Origin: Candidatus Methanoperedenaceae archaeon
GTDB lineage: Archaea; Halobacteriota; Methanosarcinia; Methanosarcinales; Methanoperedenaceae
Reading direction: 5' to 3'
DNA: 64,000 bases
Assembly (NCBI GenBank): GCA_963753595.1
Contig: CAVWCX010000037.1
Location: forward strand, 1-64,000
Notes under the pieces: model-generated
What the model was told of the DNA's origin: nothing
Databases searched by the model: none
Seen by the model: only the letters and a program-made list of their open reading frames with translations
Shown here: piece by piece, positions 5,964 through 22,115 of the stretch
Numbering within the stretch: position 1 is the stretch's first letter
Layout of the letters: each line of letters opens with the position of its first letter
Position numbers and translations under genes: made by a program

Positions 5964-6001
5964 TAATTTTAATTACAGTTTTTGTTTCATATTTATACCA
6001 A

Positions 6002-6283: not shown

Positions 6284-6320
6284 TACTGTTCGTTTGATTT
6301 TTGAAGTTTTTTTGGTTTCT

Positions 6321-6778: not shown

Positions 6779-6835
6779 TGTTACCATTAGTCTTAATACC
6801 TATCCTTCCATTGGAGTAATCCTGGAGGTCGAAGG

Positions 6836-8077
6836 ATGGAAACGAAATCGTCACCAATAAATGGTATTTTCGAAGATATGTTGATGCGTGCAACGATTTT
6901 CGAGAATAGAGAGGTACTGAGGTCTACATATACTCCGGATTATCTTCCGCACAGGAACGATCAGGTAAAAGGATTGGCTACAATATTAGTTTCAGCCTTG
7001 AGGGGCGAGACCCCCTCTAATATCCTGATATACGGAAAGACCGGAACAGGTAAAACCGCAGTAGCAAAACACGTAGGCAGGGAACTGGAGAAAACAAGTG
7101 AAACGCATGGCATTCCATGTGTTGTGGTCTATATTAACTGTGAAGTTGTGGATACGCAATACCGTTTGCTGGCATCCATTGCGCGGCATTTCGAGAAGGA
7201 CATTCCCATGACAGGGTGGCCGACTGACCAGGTATATTCTGAACTAAAGAGCGCTCTTGACATGGATAAACGCATTGCGATAATAATACTTGATGAGATT
7301 GATAAGCTCGTATGCAAAGGAGACGATGTGCTTTACAATCTTTCCAGGATAAATTCAGACTTGAAAAAATCAAAAGTCAGTCTAATCGGTGTCACAAATG
7401 ACCTGAAATTCACAGAATTCCTGGATCCAAGGGTTAAAAGTTCACTGGGCGAAGAAGAGATAATATTCCCCCCGTATGACGCAAACCAGATAAGGGATAT
7501 CCTTAACCAGAGAGCACAGATGGCATTTAAACCCCAGGTACTGGAAGAAACTGTCATCCCGCTTTGTGCTGCTTACGCAGCCCAGGAGCACGGAGATGCA
7601 AGGCGTGCACTGGACCTTTTGCGTGTATCAGGAGAGATCGCCGAACGAATAAAATCGAGCAAGGTCCTTGAAGCGCATGTCAAACAGGCCCAGGAGAAGA
7701 TCGAAATAGACAGGATAGTGGAGGTAGTAAGGACTTTGCCCAGCCAGTCTAAACTTGTTCTATTGAGTGTGGTCCTTCTCGGATACAATGGTGACAGCAA
7801 CCTTACAACAGGTGAAGCATACAATATTTACAAGCAGATGTGCAGAATGATAGGAATAGAGATATTGACCCAGCGAAGGGTTACGGATTTGATATCCGAA
7901 CTTGATATGATGGGTATCCTGAATGCAACGGTCGTAAGTAAAGGAAGATACGGAAGAACGAAAGAGATCTCTTTGAGCGTTCCTTCCGAAAGCACTAAAA
8001 GAGTTCTATTTGAGGATTACAGGTTAAAACCACTTGAAGATTTCAGGCCGCCTAACCAGACAAAGTTGTATGCCTGA
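6836..8077 (+). CDS. cdc6: Orc1/Cdc6 replication initiator
   Basis: LPHR, GKTGTGKT, LDEID, GDARRALDLL, C-terminal wHTH with GRYGRT. Confidence 0.96.
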   Translation: METKSSPINGIFEDMLMRATIFENREVLRSTYTPDYLPHRNDQVKGLATILVSALRGETPSNILIYGKTGTGKTAVAKHVGRELEKTSETHGIPCVVVYINCEVVDTQYRLLASIARHFEKDIPMTGWPTDQVYSELKSALDMDKRIAIIILDEIDKLVCKGDDVLYNLSRINSDLKKSKVSLIGVTNDLKFTEFLDPRVKSSLGEEEIIFPPYDANQIRDILNQRAQMAFKPQVLEETVIPLCAAYAAQEHGDARRALDLLRVSGEIAERIKSSKVLEAHVKQAQEKIEIDRIVEVVRTLPSQSKLVLLSVVLLGYNGDSNLTTGEAYNIYKQMCRMIGIEILTQRRVTDLISELDMMGILNATVVSKGRYGRTKEISLSVPSESTKRVLFEDYRLKPLEDFRPPNQTKLYA

Positions 8078-8105
8078 AATTTTCTCTTTTTTTTTATCTT
8101 TTTTA

Positions 8106-8687
8106 TTATTTAAAACAAGCAAAATTCCCTCTGGGAATAAGCGAAATACATCCGAGTAATGGTAATCGGCTAAATCTTGCTTTCCCGATCACCCATTCTT
8201 TTTTGATGGGAAGACCCGGACTTATGCTGCCCTGCTGGTCAAATGCAGCATTGGTTATTTTATTATCGCCTTTTGTAATGTAACCTCCATATGGAGCAGC
8301 AGGTCCTCCTGCCCACATAGGTTCGCTTTTGTTGACATAATACATGGCACGATGGATAATTGGTGTAGCTCCATCTATCCCATGTGGTTTATATAAGATG
8401 ACATCCCCATATTCATCAAAAGACATATAATTCATTTTTTTTCCTGCTTCATTTGTGATTATTTCCGTTCTGTCGATACTTTGAACAAAGATGATATCAC
8501 CTATCTGGATATGGGGGATCATGCTCCCGCTTTCTACTGCTACCATGGGTGTATATAATCCAAAAGCGATCTTTGAAACCGAGGCAAAAATAACAACAAC
8601 TGTAAGTACAAAAAGAAAATCCTTCAAAAGTCCTGCCCAGAAACTATCACTTTCTTTAAAATTTTTTAATCTATTTTTTAAGTCCAT
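8106..8687 (-). CDS. Signal peptidase I (S26, archaeal Sec11 type)
   Basis: AVESGSMIP, GDVI, PIIHR, ITKGDN. Confidence 0.88.
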   Translation of the reverse strand: MDLKNRLKNFKESDSFWAGLLKDFLFVLTVVVIFASVSKIAFGLYTPMVAVESGSMIPHIQIGDIIFVQSIDRTEIITNEAGKKMNYMSFDEYGDVILYKPHGIDGATPIIHRAMYYVNKSEPMWAGGPAAPYGGYITKGDNKITNAAFDQQGSISPGLPIKKEWVIGKARFSRLPLLGCISLIPRGNFACFK

Positions 8688-8785
8688 AAACAGCTTGAGA
8701 TAATATCAGCTATAATATTAAGACTTGTTATACATACAGGTTTATTAATATCTAAGCTGTATTCGAGACAAAAGGAAGAATATTA

Positions 8786-10018
8786 ATGGAGCTCCAGAAA
8801 CCCAGAGGCACGCGTGATTTTCTGCCAGAAGAAATGATTAAGCGAAGATATATTGAGAATAAGCTGCGCGAAGTCGCTATCCATTGGGGATATGGGGAGA
8901 TAAAAACCCCGACATTTGAGCATATAGAGCTATTTACACTGAAATCCGGTGAAGGGATACTTGGTGAAATTTATAATTTCAAGGACAAGGGCGACCGCGA
9001 GATAGCGCTTCGTCCTGAACTGACCGCTCCTGTTGTCAGGATGTATGTGGAAGAGCTCCAGAGGTCGCCAAAGCCCCTGAAATTCTTTTATTTTGATAAC
9101 TGCTTCAGGTATGAGCGCCCCCAGAAAGGACGTTTCCGTGAGTTTTTCCAGTTCGGGGTTGAAATAATAGGAAGCGCACGTCCGGAGTCTGATGCAGAAG
9201 TAATAGCGCTTGCAGTTGAAATGCTAAAAAGCGCTGGTGTCAAGGGAGATCTCCACGTAGGAAATCTCGGGATAGTACGCGCTCTTTTAAAAGATCTTGG
9301 GCCTGAACACCAGGGCAAGATCATGCGGCTTGTGGATAAGAAAGATGATAAGGGGCTTGAGGAATTTCTCGATGTGATCAATGCACCAGATGATATTAGA
9401 GGTAAATTGTTCCGCTTGATAGGATTACATGGTGAAAATGCGGTGCATGAGGCGCGCGAGCTTGTAGGGGACATCGAAGCGATATCGCAATTCAAATCGC
9501 TTCTTGATCTCCTGGATGTGTATGGCCTGGAATACCAGGTTGACCTTGGGATCGCAAGAGGCCTGGATTATTATACCGGCATGGTGTTTGAGATATACTG
9601 TGAAGGACTCGGCGCCCAGAACCAGGTGTGCGGCGGGGGCTCATACAGGCTTGCAGCTTTATTCGGTGGTGAGGACACGTCATCAACCGGATATGCTATC
9701 GGGTTTGACAGGATAATGGAAATATGTGAGGTAAATCCGAAACCACCAGGGCGCATTGTAGTAGTCTCGTTTGAGGATACGCGAAAAGAAGCGATAGTTA
9801 TTGCAAATAAGCTGAGAGAGCACGTTTCAACGTACATCGACATCATGGGGCGCAAGTTCAAAGACCAGATCTCCTATGCCAATACGATTGGCGCAAGTCA
9901 TGTGGTTATCGTGGGGAGAAACGAGCTTGATGCAGGAAAAGTGGCGCTTAAGGATATGAAGACCGGGGAGCAGGAGCTGGTGACGGTGGAGGAAGCGGTT
10001 GAGAGAGTGAAGAGTTAA
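8786..10018 (+). CDS. hisS: Histidine--tRNA ligase
   Basis: [40 protein letters not shown]. Confidence 0.97.
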
Positions 10019-10041
10019 TTTTTCAGATTTTTTCTCAAAGG

Positions 10042-10164
10042 ATAGAAAAACCTCCACAGGACGCAGTTGCCATCTTCAGGGAAAGCGCAAAAGGCATGGG
10101 TAAACTCAAGTTCCATCCTCATGAAGCGTATGAAGAGGAACTGGCGGGGAGAATGAATAAATGA
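10042..10164 (+). pseudogene. 5'-truncated remnant resembling the C-terminus of an AbrB/MazE-type antitoxin
   Basis: Reads IEKPPQDAVAIFRESAKGMGKLKFHPHEAYEEELAGRMNK* with no start codon. Confidence 0.4.
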
Positions 10165-10314
10165 ATCCAGGCTCACATCGTTTTCACACCTTCTTCACAC
10201 CAAGCTTAATTAAAATGTGAAAAGATTACCCGGTGTCGGGATCGATAATGGTACTACCGCGAAAATTTAAAAGAAGAGCAATAACCACAAGGATATTGCT
10301 GGAGCGAAAAAATA

Positions 10315-10333
10315 GGAGCCTGAGGGAGGATTT
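10315..10333 (-). repeat. att core: 3' end of a tRNA (probably tRNA-Thr)
   Basis: Minus strand AAAT-CCTCC-CTCAGGC-T-CC matches T-loop end, T-stem, acceptor strand and U discriminator; followed by a T-run; 310 bp from the integrase. Confidence 0.65.
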
Positions 10334-10643
10334 TACTCAATTCAATCTGAGTTCTAACTATTAAATACTTTAACCGGTTTTCACACCTGCAAAGAAAATC
10401 CACACATTTATCACACTAATATTAATTAAAGTGTGAGTGTTAGTGATGTTAGAATCAAGGGTCGAAGGATGGATAAAATATGAAATGTAAACACCTGGAA
10501 ATAAACTGCGTAACGCGAATCATTAACAAGGAATGTGAAGAGATCCGCGCATGTGAGTTCGGAGTTTCCTGTAATTATCAAGAGTCTGAAAAGTGTATAT
10601 TGTTTTAAATAGTATTAGAGCATAGTGATCCGTGTGATGATCT

Positions 10644-11696
10644 ATGCTATTAGAGAAATTTAAACAGGATTTGTTATTACAAAATCGAAGTAAAAAAACT
10701 ATGGTCTCCGTTTCATCTGCATTAGATGCATTGGAGAAAGAATTCAAAGTACAAATCGAAAACATAACCATTGACCAAATCAAATCATATATTTCAGGAT
10801 TACAAGCTAGAGAGTTAAGTCAAAATACAATATCACTGATCCAAAGTCAATTCATTCAGTTTTATGAATATTGCTTCAATGAAACCGATAATGAAAAATA
10901 TAGTACTTTGGCAAGAAAACTAAGAAGGATTAAAATAGGTAGGGTAAGAAAAGACCTCAAGCCAAGCGATATTTTGTTACCGGAAGAAATCAAGAAATTA
11001 ATTAATGTGGCTACACTTGAACGAGACCGTTGTATTGTAGCCTCTTTTTATGAGTCAGGGATGCGGATAGGAGAGGGACTTGCATTAGATGTTGATATGA
11101 TACAGCTTGATGAAGTAAAACAAGAGGTTACTTTCCATATACCCAATATCGAAGGATGCAAGACAGGTGCGCGCTCTGTTGTTTGCCTTGAGATATACGG
11201 ATATGTCCAGGATTGGCTTAAATGCAATCCTTCAAAGAAATTCATACCGATGCATCAGAATGGAGTACGAAAAGCTGTTGCTCTGCTATTTAAAAAGGCA
11301 GGAATAAATAAACCGCATAATATGCATCATTTTAGACATTCAGCCATAACCCATGCAGCAGGGCTTAACATGAGCGAAACCCAGCTATCTTATAGATTTT
11401 GGGGAATACCTCACAGCAACATGTTAAGCGTTTATATCCATCTTAATGAGCAATTAAAGAGCAGCGGATACAGAGACGCTAAGGGCATGGGTGAGGGCAA
11501 CGGCAAGACAGTAATAAACCCGCTGGCTTCACGGTGCTGCGAATGTGGCCGCTTGATTCAAAGCGGTTCATTGTGTAAGCAATGCACTGAAATTAAAGAA
11601 CTCAAAGAACGCAATACAGTGATGATGAAGGACATGGAGAAGATCCAAAAGTTTATTGAGATGGGCGGAATGGAGCTATTGAAAAAGAGCGGTTAA
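10644..11696 (+). CDS. Tyrosine recombinase/integrase with C-terminal Zn ribbon
   Basis: ESGMRIGE (R), KTG (K), HHFRH, WG, VY (Y); CCECG..CKQC. Confidence 0.93.
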   Translation: MLLEKFKQDLLLQNRSKKTMVSVSSALDALEKEFKVQIENITIDQIKSYISGLQARELSQNTISLIQSQFIQFYEYCFNETDNEKYSTLARKLRRIKIGRVRKDLKPSDILLPEEIKKLINVATLERDRCIVASFYESGMRIGEGLALDVDMIQLDEVKQEVTFHIPNIEGCKTGARSVVCLEIYGYVQDWLKCNPSKKFIPMHQNGVRKAVALLFKKAGINKPHNMHHFRHSAITHAAGLNMSETQLSYRFWGIPHSNMLSVYIHLNEQLKSSGYRDAKGMGEGNGKTVINPLASRCCECGRLIQSGSLCKQCTEIKELKERNTVMMKDMEKIQKFIEMGGMELLKKSG

Positions 11697-12242
11697 AACT
11701 TTGCGAAGTCTCTTTTCGACTATCATCTTTTCTATATCGCTACGCAAATTATATAAATCCAGAATAATAGTTACTGCTTCTTTCATTTTTTTATGTGATA
11801 TGTCATAGCTGGGTTGATACCGGGTCTTGAGGTCTTGCTTATGTACATTTGTATAAATTAGGGGAGTACCTTCTCTTTTTTTTATTTTTCTGTTTTCATC
11901 TTTTGCGAAACGTTGTTTTTGTACACGGCAGACTAACCCTACAGCATCTCGAAGGTCTCCGTTACCATTAAACTCAATTATCTTTTTAATATCATGTATA
12001 TCCAAGACTTGCGAAGGTTGAGCTTTGATATGATTATCCCACGCAGTTAGGCGATCATTTAACGGTTTGGATTGGTCTGCGTATGGACACGATAATATGA
12101 AAGCCTCTAACTCTTTTCGTGTCTTTATTTGACCTGTAAGTTCTATTGAAAAAGCAGGATAATATTCTTGTGGTAGCTCATATAAATAGGCTATTGCATC
12201 CGATTTAGTTTTTATCTCCAGAATTTTATATGAATTTGGCAT
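11676..12242 (-). CDS. Hypothetical protein in the repressor position of the element
   Basis: 188-aa ORF, convergent on the integrase and divergent from the RHH gene. Confidence 0.65.
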   Translation of the reverse strand: MPNSYKILEIKTKSDAIAYLYELPQEYYPAFSIELTGQIKTRKELEAFILSCPYADQSKPLNDRLTAWDNHIKAQPSQVLDIHDIKKIIEFNGNGDLRDAVGLVCRVQKQRFAKDENRKIKKREGTPLIYTNVHKQDLKTRYQPSYDISHKKMKEAVTIILDLYNLRSDIEKMIVEKRLRKVLTALFQ

Positions 12243-12291
12243 GTACGAGTTCTAAAGTCGTATATCGTCATACATCGATATATCACTTTGT

Positions 12292-12453
12292 ATGACTCGT
12301 CAAATAAGTATAAAAGACACTCTTTATGAGAGACTTAGCGAGATTAAGGGCGATCGCTCTTTTTCTTACGCTATTGAATCGCTAATAGAAAAGAATGCAC
12401 CGGTCGAACCTGCCAGGACTCAGACCGATGCACGCCAGCCACAGACCGATTAA
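12292..12453 (+). CDS. Ribbon-helix-helix DNA-binding protein (VapB/CopG-like), 53 aa
   Basis: Manual translation MTRQISIKDTLYERLSEIKGDRSFSYAIESLIEK.. Confidence 0.75.
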   Translation: MTRQISIKDTLYERLSEIKGDRSFSYAIESLIEKNAPVEPARTQTDARQPQTD

Positions 12454-12468
12454 GGAGAGTGGGCCAGC

Positions 12469-12636
12469 ATGAACCCTAATGATGAACTTAGCCTTAAAAA
12501 TGACCCCTATAGATGGGCTTCCTGGGAGTTCCAGCACGACGAGAACTATTGGCAGGACAGGGTTAAGAATGGTCAAGGACTGATCCAGCAGATTGCCAGC
12601 TTTGTAATGAAGCATGGACAGGCAGGGAAACCATGA
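12469..12636 (+). CDS. Small hypothetical protein, 55 aa
   Basis: MNPNDELSLKNDPYRWASWEF..; AGGAGAG upstream; ATGA overlap with the next gene. Confidence 0.65.
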   Translation: MNPNDELSLKNDPYRWASWEFQHDENYWQDRVKNGQGLIQQIASFVMKHGQAGKP

Positions 12637-12842
12637 AAAAAGAGGATGAAGGGGATAGCAACCACGTCAGGGGAACGAATCACACGCCTGGGAAGGTTGC
12701 TTCACTTTTGAATATGGACTCCGTTGTATATAAACATTTTTGTAGCCTTTGCAGAACTTTGGGAATAATTCCCTATTGTGATACCTGCGCATACCGTTTA
12801 TTATTATCGAATGATTTTAATATATCAGGGCAGGGCATCTAA
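12633..12842 (+). CDS. Small putative Zn-binding protein
   Basis: HFCSLC..CDTC; coupled to the upstream ORF. Confidence 0.55.
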   Translation: MKKEDEGDSNHVRGTNHTPGKVASLLNMDSVVYKHFCSLCRTLGIIPYCDTCAYRLLLSNDFNISGQGI

Positions 12843-12845
12843 ATT

Positions 12846-13025
12846 ATGGCAATCATCCGATGTCATGAATGCGGAAAGACTTTTGAGCGGAATACCTGGG
12901 ATGAGGCGAAACTTGCTTTGTCAGGTCACGTCATGTCAAGGCGTGACCACTATAATAAGAGATGGGCAAAAGGCGTCTTGTTAGGCGCAAATGTCGGATC
13001 GGGTCTTTGGGGGGATCATAAATGA
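12846..13025 (+). CDS. C2H2-type zinc-finger protein, 59 aa
   Basis: MAIIRCHECGKTF..LSGHVMSRRDH..; its stop overlaps the helicase ATG (ATGA). Confidence 0.7.
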   Translation: MAIIRCHECGKTFERNTWDEAKLALSGHVMSRRDHYNKRWAKGVLLGANVGSGLWGDHK

Positions 13026-14572
13026 GCAAAGCAACCGAGCAGCGCATACCAGCATGGAAACCGTCGAGAATCATAAATGAAACCGAAGATCCCACTGCTA
13101 AGAATAAAGCGAAAGAAAAAGAAGAAATGAAGGCCAGATTACTTAAAGAAGTTGAAAAGGATAAAAAAGCTGTAAAAGATGCTATCGAAAAGGGTATAAT
13201 CGGAGCTTATCGGAATAACATGGAATTAGCCGAAGAATTCCAGAAAATAACTCCCGTATATTTTGACATATCTAAGAATTTTTGGATATGGAATAGTAAG
13301 GAAAATTACTATATCCGATGTGATGAAACGGATATCCTTTCAAATCTTCATATCAAATCCGGTGAACAGGTATGGGATAATAAGAAAAAAGGGGAGATAT
13401 TGGAATGTATCAAGATCACAGGGAGACGGCGAGAGGTTAAAGAATGTGGCAAGACCTGGATTCATACCCTTAGCGGGATTGTGGATTATGTAACAGGGGA
13501 AAGAATAAAAGGTGGTCCTGAATATTTTCTAACAAGTCCAATCCCTCATAAGATCGGAAGCAGTGACAGCACACCAACAATAGATAAACTATTCACGGAC
13601 TGGTTAGGAGATAGAAGGCAAATCCTCTATGAATGGTTAGCCTATAATTTGGTAGATGCCTATCCTATGCACAGGATATTTATCTTATTCGGAAGTGGGC
13701 GAAATGGGAAAAGCCAATATGCAGAACTTCTAACAAGGTTTATAGGAAAAAAGAATACAACCGCAACCGAATTAGAAAAGGTAATAGAGAGCCGCTTTGA
13801 GGCATCTAAATTATATCGAAAGAAAAGCGCATTGATAGGGGAAACTGATTTTACCGCGATAAAAAGTAGTGCACGAATAAAAGCGATTTGTGGCGGTGAT
13901 ATGCTCACTGTAGAGTTTAAGAATAAAGACCCTTTTGATATGTGGAATACTGCAAAGCTTACTGTCCTCACGAACAGTATCCCCGAATCCCTGGATAAAA
14001 CAGAGGCGTTCTATTCAAGATGTATTATTGAAGAATTCAAAAATAGGTTTGATGAAGGTAAGCCCGTTATTGATTTAATCTCTGAATCAGAATATGAGAA
14101 CCTATTAAACAAGTGTTTAAAAATTCTCCCTGGTCTTATGGAAATAGGCAAATTCACAAATGAAGGTACAATTGAACAAAAAGCCAAAAAGTATGAAAGA
14201 TTATCAAATCCATTTCCAACATTCAAGAATAAGGAATTAATAGAGGACTGTAATGCACAAATTCCGGTATGGCTTATAAGAGATTTGTATAATTCGTTTT
14301 GTGCTACAAATGGCTTCCGAAAAATTGGAGATCGTGAGTTTACACAGTTATTAAAAAAGGAAGGTTACGAAACAAAAAGAACATGGTACGGTAAGAAAAA
14401 CTGGAATACCGTATATGGTTTGACCACAAAAGAACTCTTTATTTATGAAGACAGCCAAACAGAAAATAAACCAGATGAACCAGATGAACTAGATGTTTCA
14501 ACTGATTCTCTATATAGAAATCTAAATGAAACATCTGGTTCAAGTGGTTCAAGTGGTTCAAAACAGAACTAA
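13022..14572 (+). CDS. D5/P4-like superfamily 3 helicase (replication protein; no evident primase domain)
   Basis: GSGRNGKS Walker A, IGE, KAICGGD..VEFKNKD, TNSIP, FYSR, C-terminal wHTH. Confidence 0.9.
   Translation: MSKATEQRIPAWKPSRIINETEDPTAKNKAKEKEEMKARLLKEVEKDKKAVKDAIEKGIIGAYRNNMELAEEFQKITPVYFDISKNFWIWNSKENYYIRCDETDILSNLHIKSGEQVWDNKKKGEILECIKITGRRREVKECGKTWIHTLSGIVDYVTGERIKGGPEYFLTSPIPHKIGSSDSTPTIDKLFTDWLGDRRQILYEWLAYNLVDAYPMHRIFILFGSGRNGKSQYAELLTRFIGKKNTTATELEKVIESRFEASKLYRKKSALIGETDFTAIKSSARIKAICGGDMLTVEFKNKDPFDMWNTAKLTVLTNSIPESLDKTEAFYSRCIIEEFKNRFDEGKPVIDLISESEYENLLNKCLKILPGLMEIGKFTNEGTIEQKAKKYERLSNPFPTFKNKELIEDCNAQIPVWLIRDLYNSFCATNGFRKIGDREFTQLLKKEGYETKRTWYGKKNWNTVYGLTTKELFIYEDSQTENKPDEPDELDVSTDSLYRNLNETSGSSGSSGSKQN
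14469..14558. repeat. Inverted iteron array (putative element origin) inside the helicase 3' end
   Basis: AACCAGATG x2 plus AACTAGATG-TTTCA, then TGAAA-CATCTGGTT plus CAAGTGGTT x2, around an AT-rich spacer. Confidence 0.75.
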
Positions 14573-15026
14573 CTAATATGCTCTTGAAGGCAAGGGGAAC
14601 TAAGGTCATAAATAGATCAAATATCGTTGAATTTTCTATGGAATTCTGCAGCATATAAACCACAATGGCAAAGTCACGGAAAATCAGATTATTACACACC
14701 TTTAGAAATCCAGAGTGTAGCCTCAAAAATATTTGGTATTACTCAGAGACGTAACAGGGCAATTTTGACAGGTATTTTTCAAAATTCATACTTTTTTGAA
14801 TCTCACATAGAATCGTAAATGGTGAACATAGAAACAAATAGCATTTCACTTTATACAAAGTTATACAAGGTTATCACATTTCTATTCATTTCTATTGTGT
14901 TATGAATTTCTTTTATGTGTTATTTTAAGGTTATTTCTATGTTGAATAGGGAAAAAGTATATATTATCAGTAGTTTAACTGTAAATCAGTAGATAAATAG
15001 TAAATTCAGTAAAATGAGGATAAATC

Positions 15027-15370
15027 ATGTATAAGCCAAAAGTGACCAAAGACGATTTTTGCGCTGGTTCTCCGAGCACCCGACTGCGAGCATAGATGAT
15101 ATTTGCGATACTTTCGATGTCTCGATGTTATGTGCTTACCAAAAACGCAAACAGTACTTCTCCGAGCACCGCTACGATCCTAACAGCGCAAAGATAGGAG
15201 CTCAAATCTATAAAGAGGGTGTAGATCATGGAATCCTAATCGGGAGCGGATTAGGTGTACTTATCGGGGATTTAGCAAAATCAAAAGGCGTTGGCGTTTC
15301 CGACCTCATACAAAAGTTTGCGGAATGGATAAAACCAACACCAACAGCAGAGCCAGCAGGGAGCGGATAA
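15027..15370 (+). CDS. Hypothetical protein (true start probably 15027, with a 1-nt deletion in a T-run at ~15058)
   Basis: GAGGA plus ATG gives MYKPKVTKDDF, which joins LRWFSEHPTASIDDIC if T5 is read as T6. Confidence 0.55.
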
Positions 15371-15371
15371 G

Positions 15372-15998
15372 ATGGACGAGCTACCTTTACCTGCAAAGCT
15401 ACCAGTAGAAGAACCGCCCCAGCTTCCGGCAGGTATGATCGAACAAATCGATAAATATCTTGGTAATCCTTTGTTTCAAATTGCGGCAAAATCACACGCT
15501 GAAGACATCTGACAATTTATAAAATCAAATTCGGGAGAGTTTGAAGAGCTTGTTTATGAGTATATAAAAGGAAAATATATTAATATTTATAATATTATCA
15601 AACCGGAAGAGGTCACAAAAGAAGAGCCGGAGAGTGAGGATCAGGACGAAGTAGAAGAGCCGCTTATCAAGCCAGTCCCACAAGCAGCAATCACTTATGA
15701 AATTCTGGAGCTTCACAAAGAACTATACACACCTTCCGAGATTGCAGACTTTTTATCTGAAAAATATGATATTAATCTTTATCCGATGCATGTCGGTAGT
15801 GTCATAAAAAAAGCACAGGCATTAGCAGCACAAAAACCAAAGGATGAACCAGAGATCTAACAGGTTATCCAGGCAAATCCAGCCGGTCAAGTGGTCACGA
15901 TGCCAGCACAAACTGTCACGCCAGCACCTAAGCTTTTAGATCCTGATATGCTGCTAGTCGTAAGTTCCGCTGCAGGTCTTATTAATTATCTGGAATAA
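15372..15998 (+). pseudogene. Acidic protein with an HTH-like segment, two in-frame stops
   Basis: Continuous frame MDELPLPAK..; TGA at 15510 and TAA at 15858; segment ILELHKELYTPSEIADFLSEKY. Confidence 0.7.
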
Positions 15999-16073
15999 TA
16001 TTAAAATATATGTATTAATGTCAATTGCAGGATTGGCAGGATACTTATTAAAATGATAATGAGGTAATTAATT

Positions 16074-16293
16074 ATGAAAGAAACACCACAATCAAAACTA
16101 AAAGCAACGATGAAAGAAAGCGCAACGGAGCGCAGCAGGCGCTTTTATGAAAACTTCTGTACGTGCATATTTAACAGAGCACCCAGAGATTAAAACCTTT
16201 GACGATTTGTTAAAAACGATAGCAAACGAGGCTAAAGCAGCACTTGATGAGCACCCAGAAAGATATTTAACGCAAGAACAAATAACAAAATAA
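16074..16293 (+). pseudogene. Small helical protein, frameshifted
   Basis: GAGGT upstream; MKETPQSKLKATMKESAT then +1 frame AAGAFMKTSVRAYLTEHPEIKTFDDLL..*. Confidence 0.45.
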
Positions 16294-16309
16294 AAGGAGA
16301 TAAATAAAT

Positions 16310-16610
16310 ATGTCAATAAGAACAAGAAACGGACGACCAATGACCGAAGCAGAGATAGCGAGAGAAGCAGAACTGGAGAGCTAGGACGACAACGAAAAGC
16401 AGTTATGGACGCGCACGGATCCATTTTTAATAAGGCAGCGGTTGGAGGCTGAACAGTTAGAGAGAGATCTAGGGGCGACTATGCGCATTCTGATCCGCGC
16501 TATACCCCACCGCCTGAGAGAACTTTGGACAAAAGCAGGCAGTAGCGGCCTATCCTAAAACTGAAAGGCAAAAGCAGTTGATGCGTGAAATGGGGATATA
16601 TGTAGAATGA
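16310..16610 (+). pseudogene. Degraded gene (in-frame TAG at 16382, later frameshifts)
   Basis: AGGAG upstream; MSIRTRNGRPMTEAEIAREAELES*DDNEKQLWTRTDP.. Confidence 0.45.
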
Positions 16611-16715
16611 AAGACCAGCACGCTAAGGCTGAAAGCCCGTCCGATTTTTAAGCCTCATCGAAGATTTCGAGTATATCGAGACGCACCAGAGCCGAAGAAC
16701 CGGAAAAGGTAAAAT

Positions 16716-17159
16716 ATGGATTTGCTCAGCCTTTTGACTATTCCAAACTGGATAGACCAAATCCTATATATCCGAAAGCAAAGGGCAAGTATCGCAGATT
16801 TACCGCTATTCATCAGGTTTGAGAACAGCATAACTAACCCTGATCCTGATTGTGACTATTACCGCTCAGGATTCAGGCAGACAAGCCAGAATTTAATATC
16901 CTCATGCGCTTATGTTAATACCTTTGATGATGGGATAGAAATCGTTTTGAGGTATCCCCGGTTAGTGTGTCAATACATGCCTCATAGAAAATGTCCTTTC
17001 GATGACGTCCAGGCAACAGTTTTACTTTTGAATCATGAGATAATGCATGCAGTGTTCATGAGTTGGGATACTATAGAGGGAAATATATTGAATATAAAGT
17101 GGGATCACATTAACAAGCTCATGAATGAAATTCTTCCGGATACTTACTGCGAATGTTAA
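16716..17159 (+). CDS. HExxH putative zinc metallopeptidase
   Basis: LLLNHEIMHAV preceded by a beta-strand segment (AYVNTFDDGIEIVL). Confidence 0.55.
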   Translation: MDLLSLLTIPNWIDQILYIRKQRASIADLPLFIRFENSITNPDPDCDYYRSGFRQTSQNLISSCAYVNTFDDGIEIVLRYPRLVCQYMPHRKCPFDDVQATVLLLNHEIMHAVFMSWDTIEGNILNIKWDHINKLMNEILPDTYCEC

Positions 17160-17266
17160 GCAGGACCGCTTTAGAACTGATGCGTTCAGTCTTGAGAGAA
17201 AAGAGGAGGGCATATAAGGAGTAAACACTAAATGGATGATACAGCGAGCTAAAGAGGGATATAAAA

Positions 17267-17503
17267 GTGCTTAATGATAATCAGATAGAACTAATTGTTT
17301 CGCTATATGATACCCCAAAAACTACATGGGATATCCTGTATCTAATTCGACAAGTTGAACAAACAGGCGGATATACAGCACCACAAAGAGTAATATGTGA
17401 TGCTTTGCGTGATAGACTTCTATTGGTTGATAGTATTGAACCAGATAATACAATTATGATCAGCCGCAGAGTGGGGAGAGCATGTTTGGAAGGAATTGTA
17501 TGA
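17267..17503 (+). CDS. Hypothetical protein, possibly winged-helix
   Basis: 78-aa ORF with GTG start and GAGGG upstream. Confidence 0.5.
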   Translation: MLNDNQIELIVSLYDTPKTTWDILYLIRQVEQTGGYTAPQRVICDALRDRLLLVDSIEPDNTIMISRRVGRACLEGIV

Positions 17504-18277
17504 ATAGTGATAAACCCCCCTTAGATAAGCTTGAATCTAAAAAAGGAGTAAAGCATGAGTTTACACAAGAAGAAATATTTCAAGGTAAGTAAGATCGAAG
17601 GAGAACTACCAGACTAAAAAAACGATTGATAGAAGTTGAGAAACAAAAGGAAACTAGCAGAGACAAGCAGTATCTCTATAGAGGTATAGTGCAATATCTG
17701 CCACGATAGGTACCAACATATCAAAAACTCTCTGATGCTAGATATAGAATATAAGAAGTATAAATATGCTTAAATATAGGAAGAAGTGTGAGCAATGTAA
17801 AACAATGGTTAAGGTGAAAAAAGAAAAAAATGGCAAACATAAAGAAATACTCACAATCGAATCCCCCAAAATGTAAAGTAACCCTCAGGATGCGATATGA
17901 GGCACGAACACACATAAGCCATCCACCTTGAATAGGCAATAACAAAGGGATAATGCCAGGTATGCCTTATCACTAAATTAACTCATTGAAGTGGTCAAAG
18001 CCAGACCGGGAGAAGTCACACTCATCACTCCAACATATAACATAAATTTACACATTTACAAAGTAAACTCATGGTTTTAGTTATATAATAGTGAATGGAT
18101 ATTTAAAAGAAGGATTTATAATGCTCTGATTTTTAGACATAAAATAAGCTTAAATATGCTATGGTGTTAACGATAGCATTTTATGTAATATACATTAATA
18201 TAATGTAATTATCAAAATATACAAATATCAAATCAATCTTAATTTTCCTGTATCAGCTACGTTTTCGCGACATGTAT

Positions 18278-18304
18278 CGCCGTTCACAACGGCGTCTCCT
18301 TTTT
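18278..18304 (+). terminator. Hairpin followed by a T-tract near the right end of the element
   Basis: CGCCGTT-CAC-AACGGCG then TCTCCTTTTT. Confidence 0.4.
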
Positions 18305-18363
18305 ATCAGAAAAAGTTAGAAACCTCTAAATATCATTAATGTTCAAGAGGGGCGGGTGATTTA

Positions 18364-18867
18364 ATGGTACATATACTTAGAAGCATGATTGGAGAAGCGC
18401 TTGTGGGCGATGGTAATGAAATTGCACACATCGATCTTGTAATAGGGCCTAGAGGTGGTCCGGTTGAGACAGCGTTTATGAACTCGCTTGCGATGCCAAG
18501 GGAAGGACATACGCCGCTTCTTGCGGTGCTGGAACCGAATCTCCAGCCAAAACCCTGTACATTGATGATAAACAAAGTTACCATAAAGAATGCGAACCAG
18601 GCCGTATTAATGTTCGGGGCCGGGCAGGCGGCTGTGGCAAAAGCGGTAATTGACAGTGTGGAGGAAGGAGTAATTGCAAAGAGTGACGCAGAAGACCTCT
18701 TGATAATAGTTTCAGTATTCATCCACTGGGAAGCTAAAGATAAGCAAAAAATATACGATTTCAATTACGAAGCGACAAAGCTGGCAATAAAACGGGCAAT
18801 AGCAAGTGAACCTTCTGTGGGAGAAGCTCTTTCGCGAAAGGATAAAGCGAACCATCCATTCGCATGA
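18364..18867 (+). CDS. fae: Formaldehyde-activating enzyme
   Basis: IGEALVGDGNEIAHIDL, GHTPLLAV, MFGAGQAAVAKAV, VFIHWEA. Confidence 0.95.
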   Translation: MVHILRSMIGEALVGDGNEIAHIDLVIGPRGGPVETAFMNSLAMPREGHTPLLAVLEPNLQPKPCTLMINKVTIKNANQAVLMFGAGQAAVAKAVIDSVEEGVIAKSDAEDLLIIVSVFIHWEAKDKQKIYDFNYEATKLAIKRAIASEPSVGEALSRKDKANHPFA

Positions 18868-19083
18868 ATAACCTTTGTGGCAAAATTGCCACTCTTTTTT
18901 TAATATTAACAATCAGGTTGAGAGATTAGATTTAAGTTTTGATGCAATATTAGTTATCTTGATCGCAATTATTTTCCTCATGCTTGCTTCGATCTTTTTT
19001 AGCCTGTCTGACCTTAAACAGCAAAAGGTAAATATGTTGTGTTATAATTTAAGCCAGTCTTAATTTGTCGAAAGGAGATTCCC

Positions 19084-20031
19084 ATGAATTTAATTAATGA
19101 AAAAGTGATTGACGAATATGTCAAAAAATTCAATTTTAAGCAAATGCTTTATTTTCCTGCAATACTGCTTCTGGTATCGCTTTTAATTTTAACTTACACT
19201 ACAATTACTTCCCCGACCAATACTCCGGTCGAACTCGGAATGGAATTCCAGGGAGGAATGGCTATGATCTTTGACACCGCAAAGACTCCCGACCAGTTGA
19301 AAGAAGAATTTGCGGCTTATCCGGTTGTACAGGCTCGAGAATATGGTGGAGGTAACCGTAAATTGCTCCAGTTTGGCCCGATGAAGGAATCCGATATTAC
19401 GGCAGTCACAACAAAAATAAATTCCGAATATTCTAACTCCAACCTCGAAATAAGGCAGATGGGAGAAGTGGTCAGCAAAGATTTACAGGGACAGGCGCTT
19501 CGTGCCATTTTATTCTCATTCCTTGGAATGGGGATTGTGGTATTCCTGATTTTCAGGACTTTTGTGCCTTCAGTAGCTGTTGTAATTTCGGCGTTTGCTG
19601 ATATTGCGTTTGCAGCGGCAATGATGGATGTGTTCGGAATTGTATTATCTCTCGGAACTGTAGCCGCTCTTTTGATGCTTATCGGTTATTCTGTGGATAC
19701 TGATATCCTTTTGACTACAAGGCTTCTTAAAAGAAAAGGAGAATTGAATGACAAGATAAAAGATGCGATGAAAACAGGCATGACCATGACTTTGACCACT
19801 CTTGCGGCTCTTATAGCATTATTTGTGGTTTCATCGGGTTCCTATCTTGTTTCAAGCTTTACCCGCATTGATATAATAAGAGACATCTCGGTGGTCCTTA
19901 TTTTCGGACTGATCGCGGATATAGTGAACACATGGATGACTAATGTCGGAATCCTGAAATGGTACCTGGAGAAAAGCGGCGGTATTGAAAAGCGTGTCGA
20001 ATCCCCTAAAAAGAGGAGGCAGACAACATGA
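19084..20031 (+). CDS. secF: Protein translocase subunit SecF
   Basis: LGMEFQGG, LMLIGYSVDTDILLT, multiple TM helices. Confidence 0.93.
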   Translation: MNLINEKVIDEYVKKFNFKQMLYFPAILLLVSLLILTYTTITSPTNTPVELGMEFQGGMAMIFDTAKTPDQLKEEFAAYPVVQAREYGGGNRKLLQFGPMKESDITAVTTKINSEYSNSNLEIRQMGEVVSKDLQGQALRAILFSFLGMGIVVFLIFRTFVPSVAVVISAFADIAFAAAMMDVFGIVLSLGTVAALLMLIGYSVDTDILLTTRLLKRKGELNDKIKDAMKTGMTMTLTTLAALIALFVVSSGSYLVSSFTRIDIIRDISVVLIFGLIADIVNTWMTNVGILKWYLEKSGGIEKRVESPKKRRQTT

Positions 20032-21692
20032 ACGGTGAAGAACCCTTTTATAAGAAACCTCGCGTTCTTTTGTTATTGATCGTGATCCTATTTTCAATTG
20101 CAGCAATGACCATCTCTTATAAGAATGGGGAATTGAACGTGGGGAGCCAACTGAAATATGGTCTTGAACTTGAAGGCGGCTCATGGCTGCAATTACAGCT
20201 TCAGGGAGCGATTGTCCAGGTAGATGCTGATGAAAAAAAAATCATTCAGTCGGAATTCGAAAGACTATTGAATGATCCATCGATCAAGATCGAAGAAACC
20301 ACTTTGAGTTCAGTTACTTTTACAACATCAAAACAGACCACCCAGAAAACAATAGATGCCTTCGGATTCGGTAAATCCACGATATCCCAGGCTCCTGACG
20401 GCAACACAAGGATCTCCCTGCAGATAACCAAACAATATGCTATCCAGAAATACCTTGAGAATAAACTCAATGCAGAAACAAGAATGATCCCCGGGAATAT
20501 TCTCACTTTTGAAATACGGGAAAAATTGACACAAGATGAATTGAGTTCAGTTCTTTTACAGGTTGATGGAAAAGTCATCTCCTTTAAGGCAGGTGTATCC
20601 GCAGATACAAGAGAAGAAACAAAAAAGATCCTTGAAACTAAACTCAACAGCCTTGGGATGAAGGAAATCCCTATCAGGACCGTTGGCGATAATTATCTTC
20701 TTATTGACCTGGCAGGAGTAGATATCAATACAGCGCGAGAAATCGCGGCTAAACCCGGAAAATTCGAAATTCGCATACAGGTGAAGGGCAATGAGACAGA
20801 ACATGTGCTTTATGGCACGGAAATAACTCCCGGATTGCCTGAAAAGGAAAAAGGAGAATCATGGGGTGTATCTTTTACACTGAGTGATGCTGGTGCGGCA
20901 GCTGTGCGCGATGCTGCAATACAGTATGGGGCGGTTACTAATCCTTCAGCACATGAATTGATAATGTTACTTGATGAAAAGGAGATATATAGTGCTCCGC
21001 TGTCACCCGAGCTGGCCAGGAACATCCAGAGCGTACCTGTGAAAAGCCTTTCAGCAGGAACAGGTACGGGGGACGAAGGACAAAGAAGAGCAAATGAACT
21101 GCAGATCCATTTAAGAGCTGGCGCCCTGCCTGTGAAGGTAGATGTGATCGGTGCGGGGCAGGTTTCTGCTGAACTGGGTTCGAAGTTCAAATCACAGATA
21201 TTAATTGCCGGGATAATAGCCTTGATATTAGTTGCCATAGTTGTTTCATTAAGGTACAAACAACCAAATATCGTTATTCCGATGCTTTCAACATCATTCA
21301 GTGAAGTGATAATCATATTGGGTTTCACTGTCCTTGTAGGATTCCAGCTTGACCTGCCAACGATAGCGGGTATAATTGCTGTCATCGGTACAGGTATCGA
21401 CCACCTGATAATCATTACTGATGAGGTTCTTGCCGGGGGCGCAATGCCGCCGGATAAGGTTTATAGATCACGCCTTACCAAGGCCTTCGCAATAATATTC
21501 TCAGCGGCTGCGACAGTACTTGTGGCGATGTCTCCGCTCCTGATCATGGGATTTGGCGCTCTAAGGGGCTTTGCTGTAATTACCATAGTCGGAGTACTGA
21601 TCGGGGTATTCATTGCAAGACCTGCATATGCCGAAGTGATCCAGGGCATGCTTGTTGAAGATACTGGCAAGAAGTTCGTGGATGAGGAATAA
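20028..21692 (+). CDS. secD: Protein translocase subunit SecD
   Basis: GLELEGG, LRAGALP, IGTGIDHLIIITDE, LRGFA. Confidence 0.93.
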   Translation: MNGEEPFYKKPRVLLLLIVILFSIAAMTISYKNGELNVGSQLKYGLELEGGSWLQLQLQGAIVQVDADEKKIIQSEFERLLNDPSIKIEETTLSSVTFTTSKQTTQKTIDAFGFGKSTISQAPDGNTRISLQITKQYAIQKYLENKLNAETRMIPGNILTFEIREKLTQDELSSVLLQVDGKVISFKAGVSADTREETKKILETKLNSLGMKEIPIRTVGDNYLLIDLAGVDINTAREIAAKPGKFEIRIQVKGNETEHVLYGTEITPGLPEKEKGESWGVSFTLSDAGAAAVRDAAIQYGAVTNPSAHELIMLLDEKEIYSAPLSPELARNIQSVPVKSLSAGTGTGDEGQRRANELQIHLRAGALPVKVDVIGAGQVSAELGSKFKSQILIAGIIALILVAIVVSLRYKQPNIVIPMLSTSFSEVIIILGFTVLVGFQLDLPTIAGIIAVIGTGIDHLIIITDEVLAGGAMPPDKVYRSRLTKAFAIIFSAAATVLVAMSPLLIMGFGALRGFAVITIVGVLIGVFIARPAYAEVIQGMLVEDTGKKFVDEE

Positions 21693-21725
21693 ATACTGCA
21701 CAAAAGAATATAAATAAAATAAACG

Positions 21726-21761
21726 ATGCAGTTTCAACTCAAATATGGGTTGAAACTGCAT
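21726..21761. terminator. Perfect 13-bp inverted repeat after secD
   Basis: ATGCAGTTTCAAC-N10-GTTGAAACTGCAT. Confidence 0.55.
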
Positions 21762-22114: not shown

Positions 22115-22115
22115 A

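What the first reader, a model, noticed from the sequence alone, without database searches (positions are those of the whole stretch)
10170..18300. Small satellite-like (PICI/P4-style) integrative element in an archaeon
The gene order att, integrase, divergent regulator pair, micro-ORFs, SF3 helicase, origin, then a separate operon of small unknown genes, in ~8 kb with no recognisable capsid, terminase or conjugation genes, mirrors bacterial phage-inducible chromosomal islands. It is built from archaeal parts (Zn-ribbon integrase, RHH, C2H2 finger). Inference: a possibly undescribed family of virus satellites or integrative plasmids. The integrase and replication module are intact while the cargo is decaying.
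Basis: partly seen in the sequence, partly recalled or inferred. Interest (0 to 1): 0.75.

Follow-up and report, generated by a model that had tools for sequence, protein, structure and literature searches.

The report
Small integrated plasmid-like element, Methanoperedens
A 7.6-kb mobile element with its own integrase, replication helicase and origin sits inside a small host gene of a methane-oxidising archaeon; it looks like an ordinary archaeal integrative plasmid with partly decayed cargo, and nothing yet shows that it is a virus satellite.

Summary
There is a real integrated element, but its limits are 10582-18215, not 10170-18300. An element-free locus in a relative (G008) joins window 10577 directly to 18204. 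A 12-bp direct repeat sits at both junctions (10570-10581 and 18204-18215).

The element carries an intact tyrosine integrase with a C-terminal four-Cys ribbon, an RHH protein and three micro-ORFs (two conserved elsewhere). It also has a P4/D5-type SF3 helicase without a primase domain. Inverted 9-bp iterons lie in the helicase gene's 3' end, a family trait seen in 38 of 80 homologous loci against 0 of 80 controls.

Relatives with the same layout are small: 5.2 kb in G016 and 10.3 kb in a metagenome contig. No capsid, terminase or conjugation family was detected.

At least one cargo gene is a proven pseudogene, with two nonsense codons and a frameshift relative to a 96%-identical intact homologue.

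It best fits the known class of archaeal cryptic integrated elements, or integrative plasmids. The helicase is related to pRN-plasmid replicases. The satellite reading is not excluded but has no positive support.

The parts
10480..10608 (+). Host target gene: 42-codon Cys-rich micro-ORF. Its last ~9 codons are now supplied by the element.
   Evidence: It is conserved in G008, G011 and G018 between HisRS and Fae (73-76% aa). Joining the two junctions in silico restores a 42-codon ORF of the same length as in G008.
10570..10581 (.). attL core (12-bp direct repeat)
   Evidence: Exact 12-mer repeat with 18204-18215. It coincides with the left break of homology to the empty site of G008.
10644..11696 (+). 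Tyrosine integrase, 350 aa, with a C-terminal CxxC-x9-CxxC ribbon
   Evidence: Pfam Phage_integrase 3.8e-11 and PHROG 1 integrase 2.5e-22. R141, K173, H228, R231, H232, Y264 and four Cys are invariant in 7 of 7 clade members.
11676..12242 (-). 188-aa ORF of unknown function, divergent from the RHH operon
   Evidence: One homologue (55% identity, also 188 aa). No family hit. The AF2 model has low confidence, pLDDT 47.
12292..12453 (+). Ribbon-helix-helix protein, 53 aa (likely transcriptional or copy-number regulator)
   Evidence: Pfam VAPB_antitox 2.4e-8, above the cut-off. No PIN toxin follows it.
12469..12636 (+). Micro-ORF, 55 aa
   Evidence: Weak homologue in the same position upstream of the replicase in L039 (32% over 37 aa, E 7e-5).
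12633..12842 (+). Cys-rich micro-ORF, 69 aa, directly upstream of the helicase operon end
   Evidence: 51% identical over 35 aa to the 72-aa ORF that precedes the primase-less helicase of the G016 element.
12846..13025 (+). 59-aa ORF with a CxxC...H...H motif; overlaps the helicase start
   Evidence: Only a weak zf-C2H2 hit (E 0.025). No homologue was found in related loci.
13022..14572 (+). SF3 (P4 alpha / D5 / pRN-type) replicative helicase, 516 aa, without a primase-polymerase domain
   Evidence: TIGR01613 at 129.5 bits, above the 108.7 cut-off. DUF5906 2.1e-15 and Pox_D5 5e-4. 71% identical to residues 344-835 of the 902-aa AEP-helicase fusion of G002, with no relic of the primase domain upstream. 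27% identical to the pRN2 and pDL10 replicases (E 8e-23).
14469..14558 (.). Probable replication origin: two inverted arrays of three 9-bp iterons inside the helicase 3' coding end
   Evidence: 45-nt arms, 76% complementary. The same architecture with different 9-mers is found in G002, L039 and L038. It occurs in 38 of 80 homologue loci, against 0 of 80 internal controls and 0 of 80 shuffles.
14627..14818 (+). 63-aa ORF downstream of the helicase, function unknown
   Evidence: 36% identical over 52 aa to the ORF after the helicase in L041. No family hit. The G016 element has an HTH_17 (excisionase-like) ORF in this position.
15059..15370 (+). 103-aa cargo ORF, unknown
   Evidence: Listed as an ORF. 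No family hit and no homologue in related loci.
15372..16056 (+). Pseudogene of a ~227-aa tail-anchored protein: in-frame TGA at 15510, TAA at 15858, and a frameshift near 15979-15995
   Evidence: Five intact homologues of 219-233 aa exist, the best 96% identical. They have R/Q and K where the window has stop codons, and a C-terminal hydrophobic helix that lies in another frame here.
16147..16293 (+). 48-aa ORF, unknown
   Evidence: Listed. Only sub-threshold Pfam noise.
16310..16558 (+). Open frame interrupted by an in-frame TAG (16382-16384); possibly a second broken gene
   Evidence: Frames seen. No homologue was available to test this (one search gave no family).
16716..17159 (+). 147-aa HExxH protein (CP...HExxH...W...P...CxC), apparently intact; possibly a minimal zinc metallopeptidase
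   Evidence: Four homologues among 1.84 billion representatives. One of them lies 0.7 kb downstream of the helicase in the G016 element. Invariant motif seen. Weak WLM-protease match, E 0.26.
17267..17503 (+). 78-aa ORF, unknown
   Evidence: Listed. No family hit.
17504..18203 (.). Non-coding right arm. It includes a 24-nt motif (17884-17907) and a ~100-bp conserved AT-rich block (18032-18147) that also occur elsewhere in this and related genomes.
18204..18215 (.). attR core (12-bp direct repeat)

Best explanation
This is a 7.6-kb cryptic integrated element, that is, an integrative plasmid-like replicon, of a Candidatus Methanoperedens genome.

Shown:
- It is inserted between HisRS and Fae, in the 3' end of a 42-codon host gene.
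- It is flanked by a 12-bp direct repeat about 60 bp upstream of its own integrase gene.
- The integrase and the SF3 helicase keep every residue that is invariant in their clades.
- The helicase gene ends in inverted 9-bp iteron arrays, which are a trait of the whole helicase family.
- At least one cargo gene is dead.

Inferred:
- The Zn-ribbon tyrosine integrase recombines the 12-bp core, so the element excises as a circle of about 7.6 kb.
- The helicase binds the iterons through its C-terminal D5-type DNA-binding region, melts the AT-rich spacer, and recruits the host primase and replisome, because the element has no primase of its own.
- The RHH protein, and perhaps the micro-ORFs, set transcription or copy number.
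- Horizontal spread is by an unknown route. The element is probably on its way to domestication or loss, since cargo coding density is 0.41 against 0.97 in the integration-replication module.
For: Boundaries:
- The empty site in G008 joins window 10577 to 18204.
- In G011 the micro-ORF is followed by Fae about 180 bp later.
- The 12-mer is exact at both junctions.
- The reconstructed site gives a 42-codon ORF, as in G008.

Same design in relatives:
- L039 has a 16-bp repeat (15 of 16 matching) 43 bp upstream of int and 10.3 kb away.
- G016 has a CCTGTAAG-type repeat 40 bp upstream of int and 5.2 kb away.
- G016 carries int, a divergent wHTH, an RHH, a Cys-rich ORF homologous to 12633-12842, a primase-less helicase, and an HExxH homologue of 16716-17159.

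Replication module:
- TIGR01613 scores above its cut-off.
- The helicase is homologous to the pRN2 and pDL10 plasmid replicases.
- Iteron arrays occur in 38 of 80 loci, against 0 of 80 and 0 of 80 controls, with 34 distinct 9-mers.
- A circle of about 3975 bp carries a family helicase (L121, 127-bp terminal overlap).

No virion or conjugation families were found in the element or in the cargo of L038, L039 and G016.

Among 40 homologue loci of at least 5 kb, nothing but the helicase is widely shared.

The integrase clade pairs with other modules: MCM in G047, restriction-modification genes in G002:C74.

The class is described in PMC6563490.
Against: - No circular form, empty-site reads or expression could be examined, because no sequencing run was listed. 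Present-day mobility is therefore unproven.
- No excisionase was recognised in the window, although G016 has an HTH_17 ORF.
- Most cargo is ORFan, so 'no capsid gene' means 'none recognisable'. Both AF2 models were too poor for fold search (pLDDT 52.7 and 47.1).
- The closest helicase homologues (55% identity or more) mostly carry a fused primase domain. The window protein may therefore be a derived, possibly crippled, form.
- The right iteron arm is only 76% complementary to the left, against 84-100% in G002 and 90% in L039.
- The right arm contains a conserved multi-copy block (18032-18147) whose origin is unclear, so the insert may be composite.
Confidence: 0.72

Rival explanations
1. It is a virus satellite, working like PICI/P4 in bacteria or pSSVi/pSSVx in Saccharolobus. 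On this reading it stays integrated until a helper virus infects, then excises, replicates from its own origin and is packaged into helper virions. Some ORFan cargo, such as the HExxH protein or the tail-anchored HTH protein, would serve hijacking or interference.
For: - The gene order and size match satellites: int, regulators, rep helicase, ori next to rep, and a small accessory operon.
- Primase-less helicase variants occur in two elements that share a Cys-rich ORF and the HExxH ORF.
- Archaeal satellites with plasmid-derived primase-helicase modules are in print: pSSVx, pSSVi and the SRCEs (10.1101/2025.02.15.638363, passages), and NMV2S (10.64898/2026.08.12.739948, passages).
Against: - No homologue of any virion, packaging or capsid-size protein was found. 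By contrast, pSSVx and the SRCEs carry a viral ATPase and/or MCP.
- The integrase and the HExxH family have no match in IMG/VR.
- The cargo protein P0128 has no match in 50,697 phage and virus records.
- The cargo differs completely among relatives, so there is no conserved hijack module.
- None of 12 short DNA matches lay in a CRISPR array.
Confidence: 0.12
2. It is the stump of a larger provirus or conjugative element whose structural or transfer genes were deleted. Only the integration and replication end survives, together with some junk.
For: - The cargo half is degraded: coding density 0.41, one proven pseudogene and a second interrupted frame.
- Integrases of the same clade also sit next to much larger gene sets, for example G004:C1 with ORFs of 1308 and 909 aa.
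- Family helicases occur in 35-60-kb viruses at 22-34% identity.
Against: - Both att cores are intact and identical, and they restore the target ORF. A deletion that removed one end would have lost attR.
- The relatives that can be bounded are also small and lack recognisable structural genes: G016 5.2 kb and L039 10.3 kb.
- The pseudogene's intact homologues are small proteins of 219-233 aa, not fragments of structural genes.
Confidence: 0.08
3. It is the provirus of a small, undescribed archaeal virus whose capsid protein is one of the ORFans.
For: - Many archaeal capsid proteins are undetectable by sequence (general knowledge).
- The cargo includes a tail-anchored membrane protein family.
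Against: - That gene is dead here.
- No shared candidate structural gene exists across the relatives.
- No packaging ATPase was found.
- The family has no IMG/VR matches except generic helicase hits.
Confidence: 0.05

Closest known systems
Cryptic integrated elements (CIE) of archaea, as defined for Thaumarchaeota (Krupovic et al. 2019, PMC6563490; passages read)
   Same: Both have an integrase next to a direct-repeat att, an MGE-type replication protein (primpol and/or SF3 helicase), RHH/wHTH regulators and mostly ORFan cargo. Neither has viral or conjugative signature genes. The size lies within the published 2.6-98 kb range.
   Different: The host lineage differs (Methanoperedens). The integrase clade has a C-terminal four-Cys ribbon. 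The target is the 3' end of a 42-codon protein gene. The helicase lacks the primase domain.
pRN-family plasmids of Sulfolobales (pRN1/pRN2/pDL10) and their integrative or satellite derivatives pSSVi and pSSVx
   Same: The helicase domain is homologous: 27% identity, E 8e-23 to pRN2 (NC_002101) and 4e-21 to pDL10. The replicon is small and carries an RHH (CopG-like) regulator. From recall, pSSVi combines such a replicon with an integrase. pSSVx and pSSVi are the classical archaeal satellites.
   Different: The window has no prim-pol domain. Here int stays intact and att lies outside the gene, whereas (from recall) the SSV-type integrase gene is split on integration. There is no fusellovirus-derived gene, and no known helper.
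Bacterial phage satellites: P4 (alpha primase-helicase, iteron ori/crr) and PICI/SaPI (int, Stl/Str-type regulators, pri-rep, iteron ori beside rep)
   Same: The module order is the same. The helicase is a P4-family member (TIGR01613 above its cut-off). An iteron origin flanking an AT-rich spacer lies at the end of the rep gene. The comparison with SaPI ori rests on recall.
   Different: No TerS, capsid-remodelling, Ppi/Sid/Psu-like or cos/pac feature was recognised. No helper is known. The host is from a different domain of life, and the integrase clade differs.
Plasmid-derived spindle-virus satellites of haloarchaea and nanohaloarchaea (SRCEs; preprint 10.1101/2025.02.15.638363) and the putative Asgard satellite NMV2S (preprint 10.64898/2026.08.12.739948)
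   Same: These are small elements with plasmid-type primase-helicase or Rep modules and Arc/RHH-type regulators (passages).
   Different: SRCEs are defined by carrying the viral MCP and/or AAA+ ATPase. NMV2S was called by its coverage and concatemers with a helper virus. The window element shows neither kind of evidence.

Membership tests
Cryptic integrated element / integrative plasmid of archaea | Integrase gene inside an insert that is bounded by direct repeats and absent from related genomes | tested here: met
   The empty sites are in G008 and G011, and the 12-bp repeat lies at both junctions.
Cryptic integrated element / integrative plasmid of archaea | No virion (capsid, packaging ATPase/terminase) and no conjugation signature genes | tested here: met
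   None was found in Pfam, PHROGs or NCBIfam for the ORFs and broken frames. This only shows that none is recognisable, because much of the cargo is ORFan.
Cryptic integrated element / integrative plasmid of archaea | MGE-type replication protein | tested here: met
   TIGR01613 scores 129.5 bits against a 108.7 cut-off, and DUF5906 gives 2.1e-15.
Phage/virus satellite (PICI, P4-like, pSSVx/pSSVi-like) | Packaging into virions of a helper virus | not testable with these tools
   No runs were listed, and no helper virus is known.
Phage/virus satellite (PICI, P4-like, pSSVx/pSSVi-like) | Genes or sites that hijack helper morphogenesis (TerS, capsid-size factors, viral ATPase/MCP, cos/pac shared with a helper) | tested here: not met
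   There were no such family hits. P0128 has no match in the phage and virus records. The int and HExxH families are not in IMG/VR.
Phage/virus satellite (PICI, P4-like, pSSVx/pSSVi-like) | Integrase, regulators, own replicase and ori in a genome much smaller than a virus | tested here: met
   This feature is shared with integrative plasmids, so it does not discriminate.
P4-family primase/helicase (TIGR01613; SF3 helicase) | Scores above the curated cut-off; Walker A GxxxxGK[ST] and clade-invariant residues present | tested here: met
   G224, G226, N228, G229 and K230 are invariant in the 19-sequence alignment whose first row is the window protein.
pRN-type replicase (prim-pol fused to SF3 helicase) | N-terminal archaeo-eukaryotic prim-pol domain | tested here: not met
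   The window protein starts at the equivalent of residue ~344 of the G002 fusion, and there is no relic upstream. G002, L038 and L039 do have AEP-TOTE or Prim-Pol domains.
SSV-type integrase elements (pSSVi, fuselloviruses) | att site inside the integrase gene, so that int is split on integration (feature recalled) | tested here: not met
   int is one intact 350-aa ORF, and the att core lies 62 bp upstream of it.
Tyrosine recombinase | Catalytic R...K...HxxR...[H/W]...Y | tested here: met
   R141, K173, H228, R231, H232/W253 and Y264 are invariant in 7 of 7 clade members. Assigning them to catalytic roles is by position and recall.

The most novel reading that the evidence does not exclude
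The window element, the G016 element and their kin are the first PICI-like virus satellites of methane-metabolising archaea. On this reading the primase-less helicase with its Cys-rich partner and self-encoded iteron origin gives helper-triggered over-replication. The rare HExxH protein and the tail-anchored HTH protein act on a still unknown Methanoperedens virus. The dead cargo here would then mark a satellite that has lost its helper.
Probability: 0.1. Interest if true: 0.8.

Novelty: new member of a known kind. Interest (0 to 1): 0.38.

Why it matters
Methanoperedens and other ANME archaea have no genetic system. The literature that my searches returned on their mobilome deals with Borgs, large plasmids and jumbo elements (listings; passages of PMC13444090). 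I found no paper on small integrative replicons of this genus in those four searches.

A 7.6-kb element with mapped att sites, an intact integrase and a one-protein replicon with an identifiable iteron origin is a candidate starting point for a shuttle or integration vector. PMC6563490 suggests this use for small CIEs.

The family-wide origin inside the replicase gene's 3' end, with co-varying 9-mers, gives a testable rule for finding the origins of many uncultured archaeal and bacterial P4-type replicons.

As biology, the element itself is ordinary: one more cryptic integrative plasmid, half decayed.

Tried and rejected
- **Direct repeats of 14 nt or more:** The att core was found only after the empty site was mapped.
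- **tRNA and RNA families:** there is no tRNA within 45 kb. Rfam gave no match above noise in 8000-20000.
- **Recoding as the cause of the in-frame stops:** rejected, because three different stop codons are involved (TGA, TAA, TAG) and the homologues have ordinary residues there.
- **Relics of a primase domain upstream of the helicase:** none.
- **att core in the G002 relative:** 5 matches with up to 2 mismatches against 4.3 expected by chance, so not informative.
- **Cargo ORFs against 91 related loci:** no matches except the 63-aa ORF in L041.
- **Structure route:** the AF2 model of the HExxH family (5 sequences) reached pLDDT 52.7. Foldseek against PDB gave 0 matches at E <= 0.001. The profile search against PDB gave only a WLM protease at E 0.26. 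The AF2 model of the 188-aa ORF (2 sequences) reached pLDDT 47.1 and was not searched.
- **ESM Atlas:** no usable hit for the 188-aa ORF or for P0128.
- **CRISPR:** 12 short DNA matches in relatives were fetched and 0 of 12 lie in repeat arrays. My simple k-mer scan found no array in the assembly of G000 itself.
- **Terminal overlaps:** 30 complete helicase contigs were tested and only L121 has one.
- **Sequencing runs:** none was listed for 10300-18500, and no RNA holder was listed.
- **Near-identical cargo relative:** the 13.9-kb contig that encodes P0128 could not be fetched.
- **Supplements:** the papers' supplementary files were not opened. The supplements of PMC6563490 and of the Methanoperedens papers may list similar elements.

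Full report
**1. What is in the sequence**

The window comes from a Candidatus Methanoperedens genome.
- The closest helicase homologue with a name is annotated as Candidatus Methanoperedens (P0006). The matching GTDB contig carries the same label (L144).
- Histidyl-tRNA synthetase lies at 8786-10018 and formaldehyde-activating enzyme (Fae) at 18364-18867. Between them is a block with slightly lower GC, 0.381 against about 0.41 in the flanks.

The gene order:
- integrase, 10644-11696, + strand;
- a 188-aa ORF, 11676-12242, - strand;
- an RHH protein, 12292-12453;
- three micro-ORFs of 55, 69 and 59 aa;
- a 516-aa helicase, 13022-14572;
- about 3.6 kb of short or interrupted + strand frames.

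Family assignments:
- Phage_integrase 3.8e-11, VapB-type RHH 2.4e-8 and DUF5906 2.1e-15.
- PHROG integrase 2.5e-22.
- TIGR01613 'phage/plasmid primase, P4 family' at 129.5 bits against a cut-off of 108.7.

**2. True boundaries**

That is not correct.
- In the related genome G008, the sequence after HisRS matches window 10150-10332 and 10400-10577. It then runs straight on into 18204-18308.
- In G011 the same small ORF is followed by Fae about 180 bp later.
- The stretch 10150-10577 therefore belongs to the host. It holds two conserved micro-ORFs of 43 and 42 codons.
- The 12-mer TGTAATTATCAA stands at 10570-10581 and again at 18204-18215.
- A 12-mer repeat alone is not rare: 4 families of 12 nt or more occur in these 8 kb. 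This one, however, falls exactly on both breaks of homology.
- Joining the two junctions in a script gave a 42-codon ORF of the same length as in G008.

The element is 10582-18215, 7634 bp counting one core copy. It is inserted in the last codons of a Cys-rich micro-gene, and the element supplies a substitute 3' end.

**3. Relatives and architecture**

The helicase is single-copy in its genome. Relatives with the same layout are listed below.

| Relative | Integrase | Replicase | Bounds and size | Other content |
|---|---|---|---|---|
| G002:C95 | 68% identical | 902-aa AEP-helicase fusion, 71% identical over the helicase part | Contig ends just after the replicase | Not seen |
| Metagenome contig L039 | 49% identical | 830-aa Prim-Pol-helicase | 16-bp repeat (15 of 16 matching), first copy 43 bp upstream of int, copies 10.3 kb apart | MarR-like protein, 534-aa and 138-aa unknowns, RNase H-HTH protein |
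| L038 (10.3-kb contig) | 23% identical | 907-aa fusion | Not bounded | Unknowns, including an 810-aa protein |
| G016 | Unrelated by BLAST | 421-aa helicase without primase, 28% identical | 5.2-kb insert between LeuRS and a membrane-protein gene; CCTGTAAG-type repeats, first copy 40 bp upstream of int | Listed below |

The G016 insert also contains:
- a divergent wHTH;
- an RHH;
- a 72-aa Cys-rich ORF, 51% identical over 35 aa to window 12633-12842;
- an HTH_17 ORF;
- a 99-aa HExxH protein, 41% identical to window 16716-17159.

The layout 'att, int, regulators, micro-ORFs, helicase, small cargo' therefore recurs. The two relatives that can be bounded are small.

Cargo and module mixing:
- Cargo is not conserved. 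Among 40 homologue loci of at least 5 kb, only the helicase is widely shared.
- Integrases of the window's clade (44-70% identity) occur at 11 places in 8 other genomes of the genus (G002, G047, G044, G024, G061, G062, G004, G048). Two further places (G015, G023) match at only 32-35%. Only one place has the close helicase.
- G047 couples such an integrase to the MCM-type module of a second element in the window's own genome. The small ORFs are 76-89% identical and the MCM 36%.
- G002:C74 couples one to restriction-modification genes. G004:C1 couples one to a set of very large ORFs.
- This is the modular mobilome of integrative plasmids, not a conserved satellite genome.

**4. The modules**

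*Integrase.* In an alignment of 7 clade members the following are invariant: the Arg of ESGxRxGE, the Lys of GCKTG, HxxRH, the Tyr of SVYxHL, and four Cys arranged CxxC-x9-CxxC. The window protein is intact.

*Helicase.*
- All 90-odd positions that are invariant in 19 close homologues are present, including GxGxNGK.
- The protein begins at the equivalent of residue 344 of the G002 fusion. Nothing upstream resembles the primase domain.
- Primase-less forms are common in the wider family. In the ~3975-bp circle L121 a small AEP is a separate gene.
- The helicase is 27% identical to the replicases of pRN2 and pDL10, with E-values of 8e-23 and 4e-21.
- It is 22-34% identical to 'primases' of many phages and a few archaeal viruses. 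It is therefore a generic MGE replicase.

*Origin.*
- Three 9-bp units face three inverted units across an AT-rich spacer at 14469-14558, inside the coding 3' end.
- G002, L039 and L038 have the same arrangement with other 9-mers. G016 has inverted repeats just after the stop codon.
- In a scan of 80 homologue loci with enough 3' sequence, 38 had an inverted pair of 9-bp-period arrays. The control stretches inside the helicase gene gave 0 of 80, and shuffled sequence gave 0 of 80. There were 34 distinct units (listing).
- The DNA symmetry is kept while the sequence changes.

**5. Cargo decay**

- ORFs with start codons cover 0.97 of 10582-14572 but only 0.41 of 14573-18203.
- The frame 15372-15995 is open apart from a TGA and a TAA.
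- Read through with X, it finds five intact proteins of 219-233 aa, the best 96% identical. These have R or Q at the first stop and K at the second. They also have a C-terminal hydrophobic helix that lies in another frame in the window.
- This gene therefore carries two nonsense mutations and a frameshift.
- A second frame (16310-16558) has an in-frame TAG. I could not test it against homologues.
- The HExxH ORF looks whole: it aligns end to end with a 146-aa homologue at 67% identity.

**6. Satellite or plasmid?**

Everything positive here is shared by integrative plasmids and satellites: int, att, regulators, own replicase, and an origin beside rep. What defines a satellite was either not testable or not found.
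- There is no recognisable hijack or packaging gene.
- The integrase and the HExxH family have no match in IMG/VR.
- P0128 has no match in the phage and virus collection.
- No short match lay in a CRISPR array.
- No sequencing run could be obtained.

The published archaeal satellites were called on different grounds. pSSVx and the SRCEs carry viral structural or ATPase genes (passages). NMV2S was called from coverage and concatemers with its virus (passages).

The published class that fits without strain is the cryptic integrated element of Krupovic et al. (passages). [quoted passage not shown]

My probabilities:
- integrative plasmid/CIE: 0.72;
- satellite: about 0.12;
- deletion remnant: 0.08;
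- cryptic small provirus: 0.05.

**7. Novelty and value**

- This is a new member of a known kind.
- Four literature searches returned no paper on small integrative replicons of Methanoperedens. I saw only listings for most hits, and I opened no supplements.
- The practical interest is a mapped att/int pair and a one-protein replicon with an identifiable origin, in a lineage that has no genetic tools.
- The broader lead is the origin-in-the-gene rule for P4-type helicases.

Noticed in passing
window 10041-10158: A ~118-bp block just after HisRS is 93% identical to a block beside HisRS in G019. It is 80-90% identical to copies on other contigs of several relatives. It is absent from the G008 locus and has no second copy in G000. 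Rfam gave no hit. It may be a MITE or a small RNA gene.
   Followed up: partly
window 18032-18147 (and a 24-nt motif at 17884-17907): A conserved AT-rich block of about 100 bp with a TATA-like box lies in the element's right arm. Copies are in G000:C33 (two) and, at 72-94% identity, in at least five other genomes. The five copies I fetched from other genomes are not within 1.5 kb of an integrase. The 24-nt motif recurs twice near the end of a second integrated element in C33.
   Followed up: partly
window 10170-10480: The two host micro-ORFs (43 aa at 10233-10364; 42 aa at 10480-10608) are each preceded by TTTCACACC ... GTGTGAA-type inverted motifs. These motifs are also present in G008. They look like paired operators of a small regulon, not an att site.
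   Followed up: partly
G000:C33:77700-90400 (L193): A second integrated element lies in the same genome. It has a tyrosine integrase, small ORFs, a 754-aa MCM helicase, a 616-aa unknown protein, a second integrase and a MazE-like ORF. No virion genes were recognised.
   Followed up: partly
L210 (G047:C35:1-7000): Module shuffling: an integrase 62% identical to the window's is joined to the C33-type small-ORF module (76-89% identical) and an MCM helicase (36% identical).
   Followed up: yes
80 helicase-homologue loci (L030, L036-L176): Inverted arrays of 9-bp iterons lie at the 3' end of the helicase gene in 38 of 80 loci, with 34 different units. Both kinds of control gave 0 of 80. This is a general origin signature for this P4-type helicase clade.
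   Followed up: yes
L121 (IMG/VR contig, 4102 bp): A 127-bp terminal overlap implies a circle of about 3975 bp. It encodes a separate 177-aa AEP-like protein, a 460-aa family helicase and a few small ORFs. This is a minimal free replicon of the family.
   Followed up: partly
L032 (G004:C23, downstream of HisRS): In the closest relative (HisRS 90% nt identity), the 12 kb after HisRS match nothing in window 6000-24000. The micro-ORFs and Fae are not there. The locus may be a hot spot for rearrangement or insertion.
   Followed up: no
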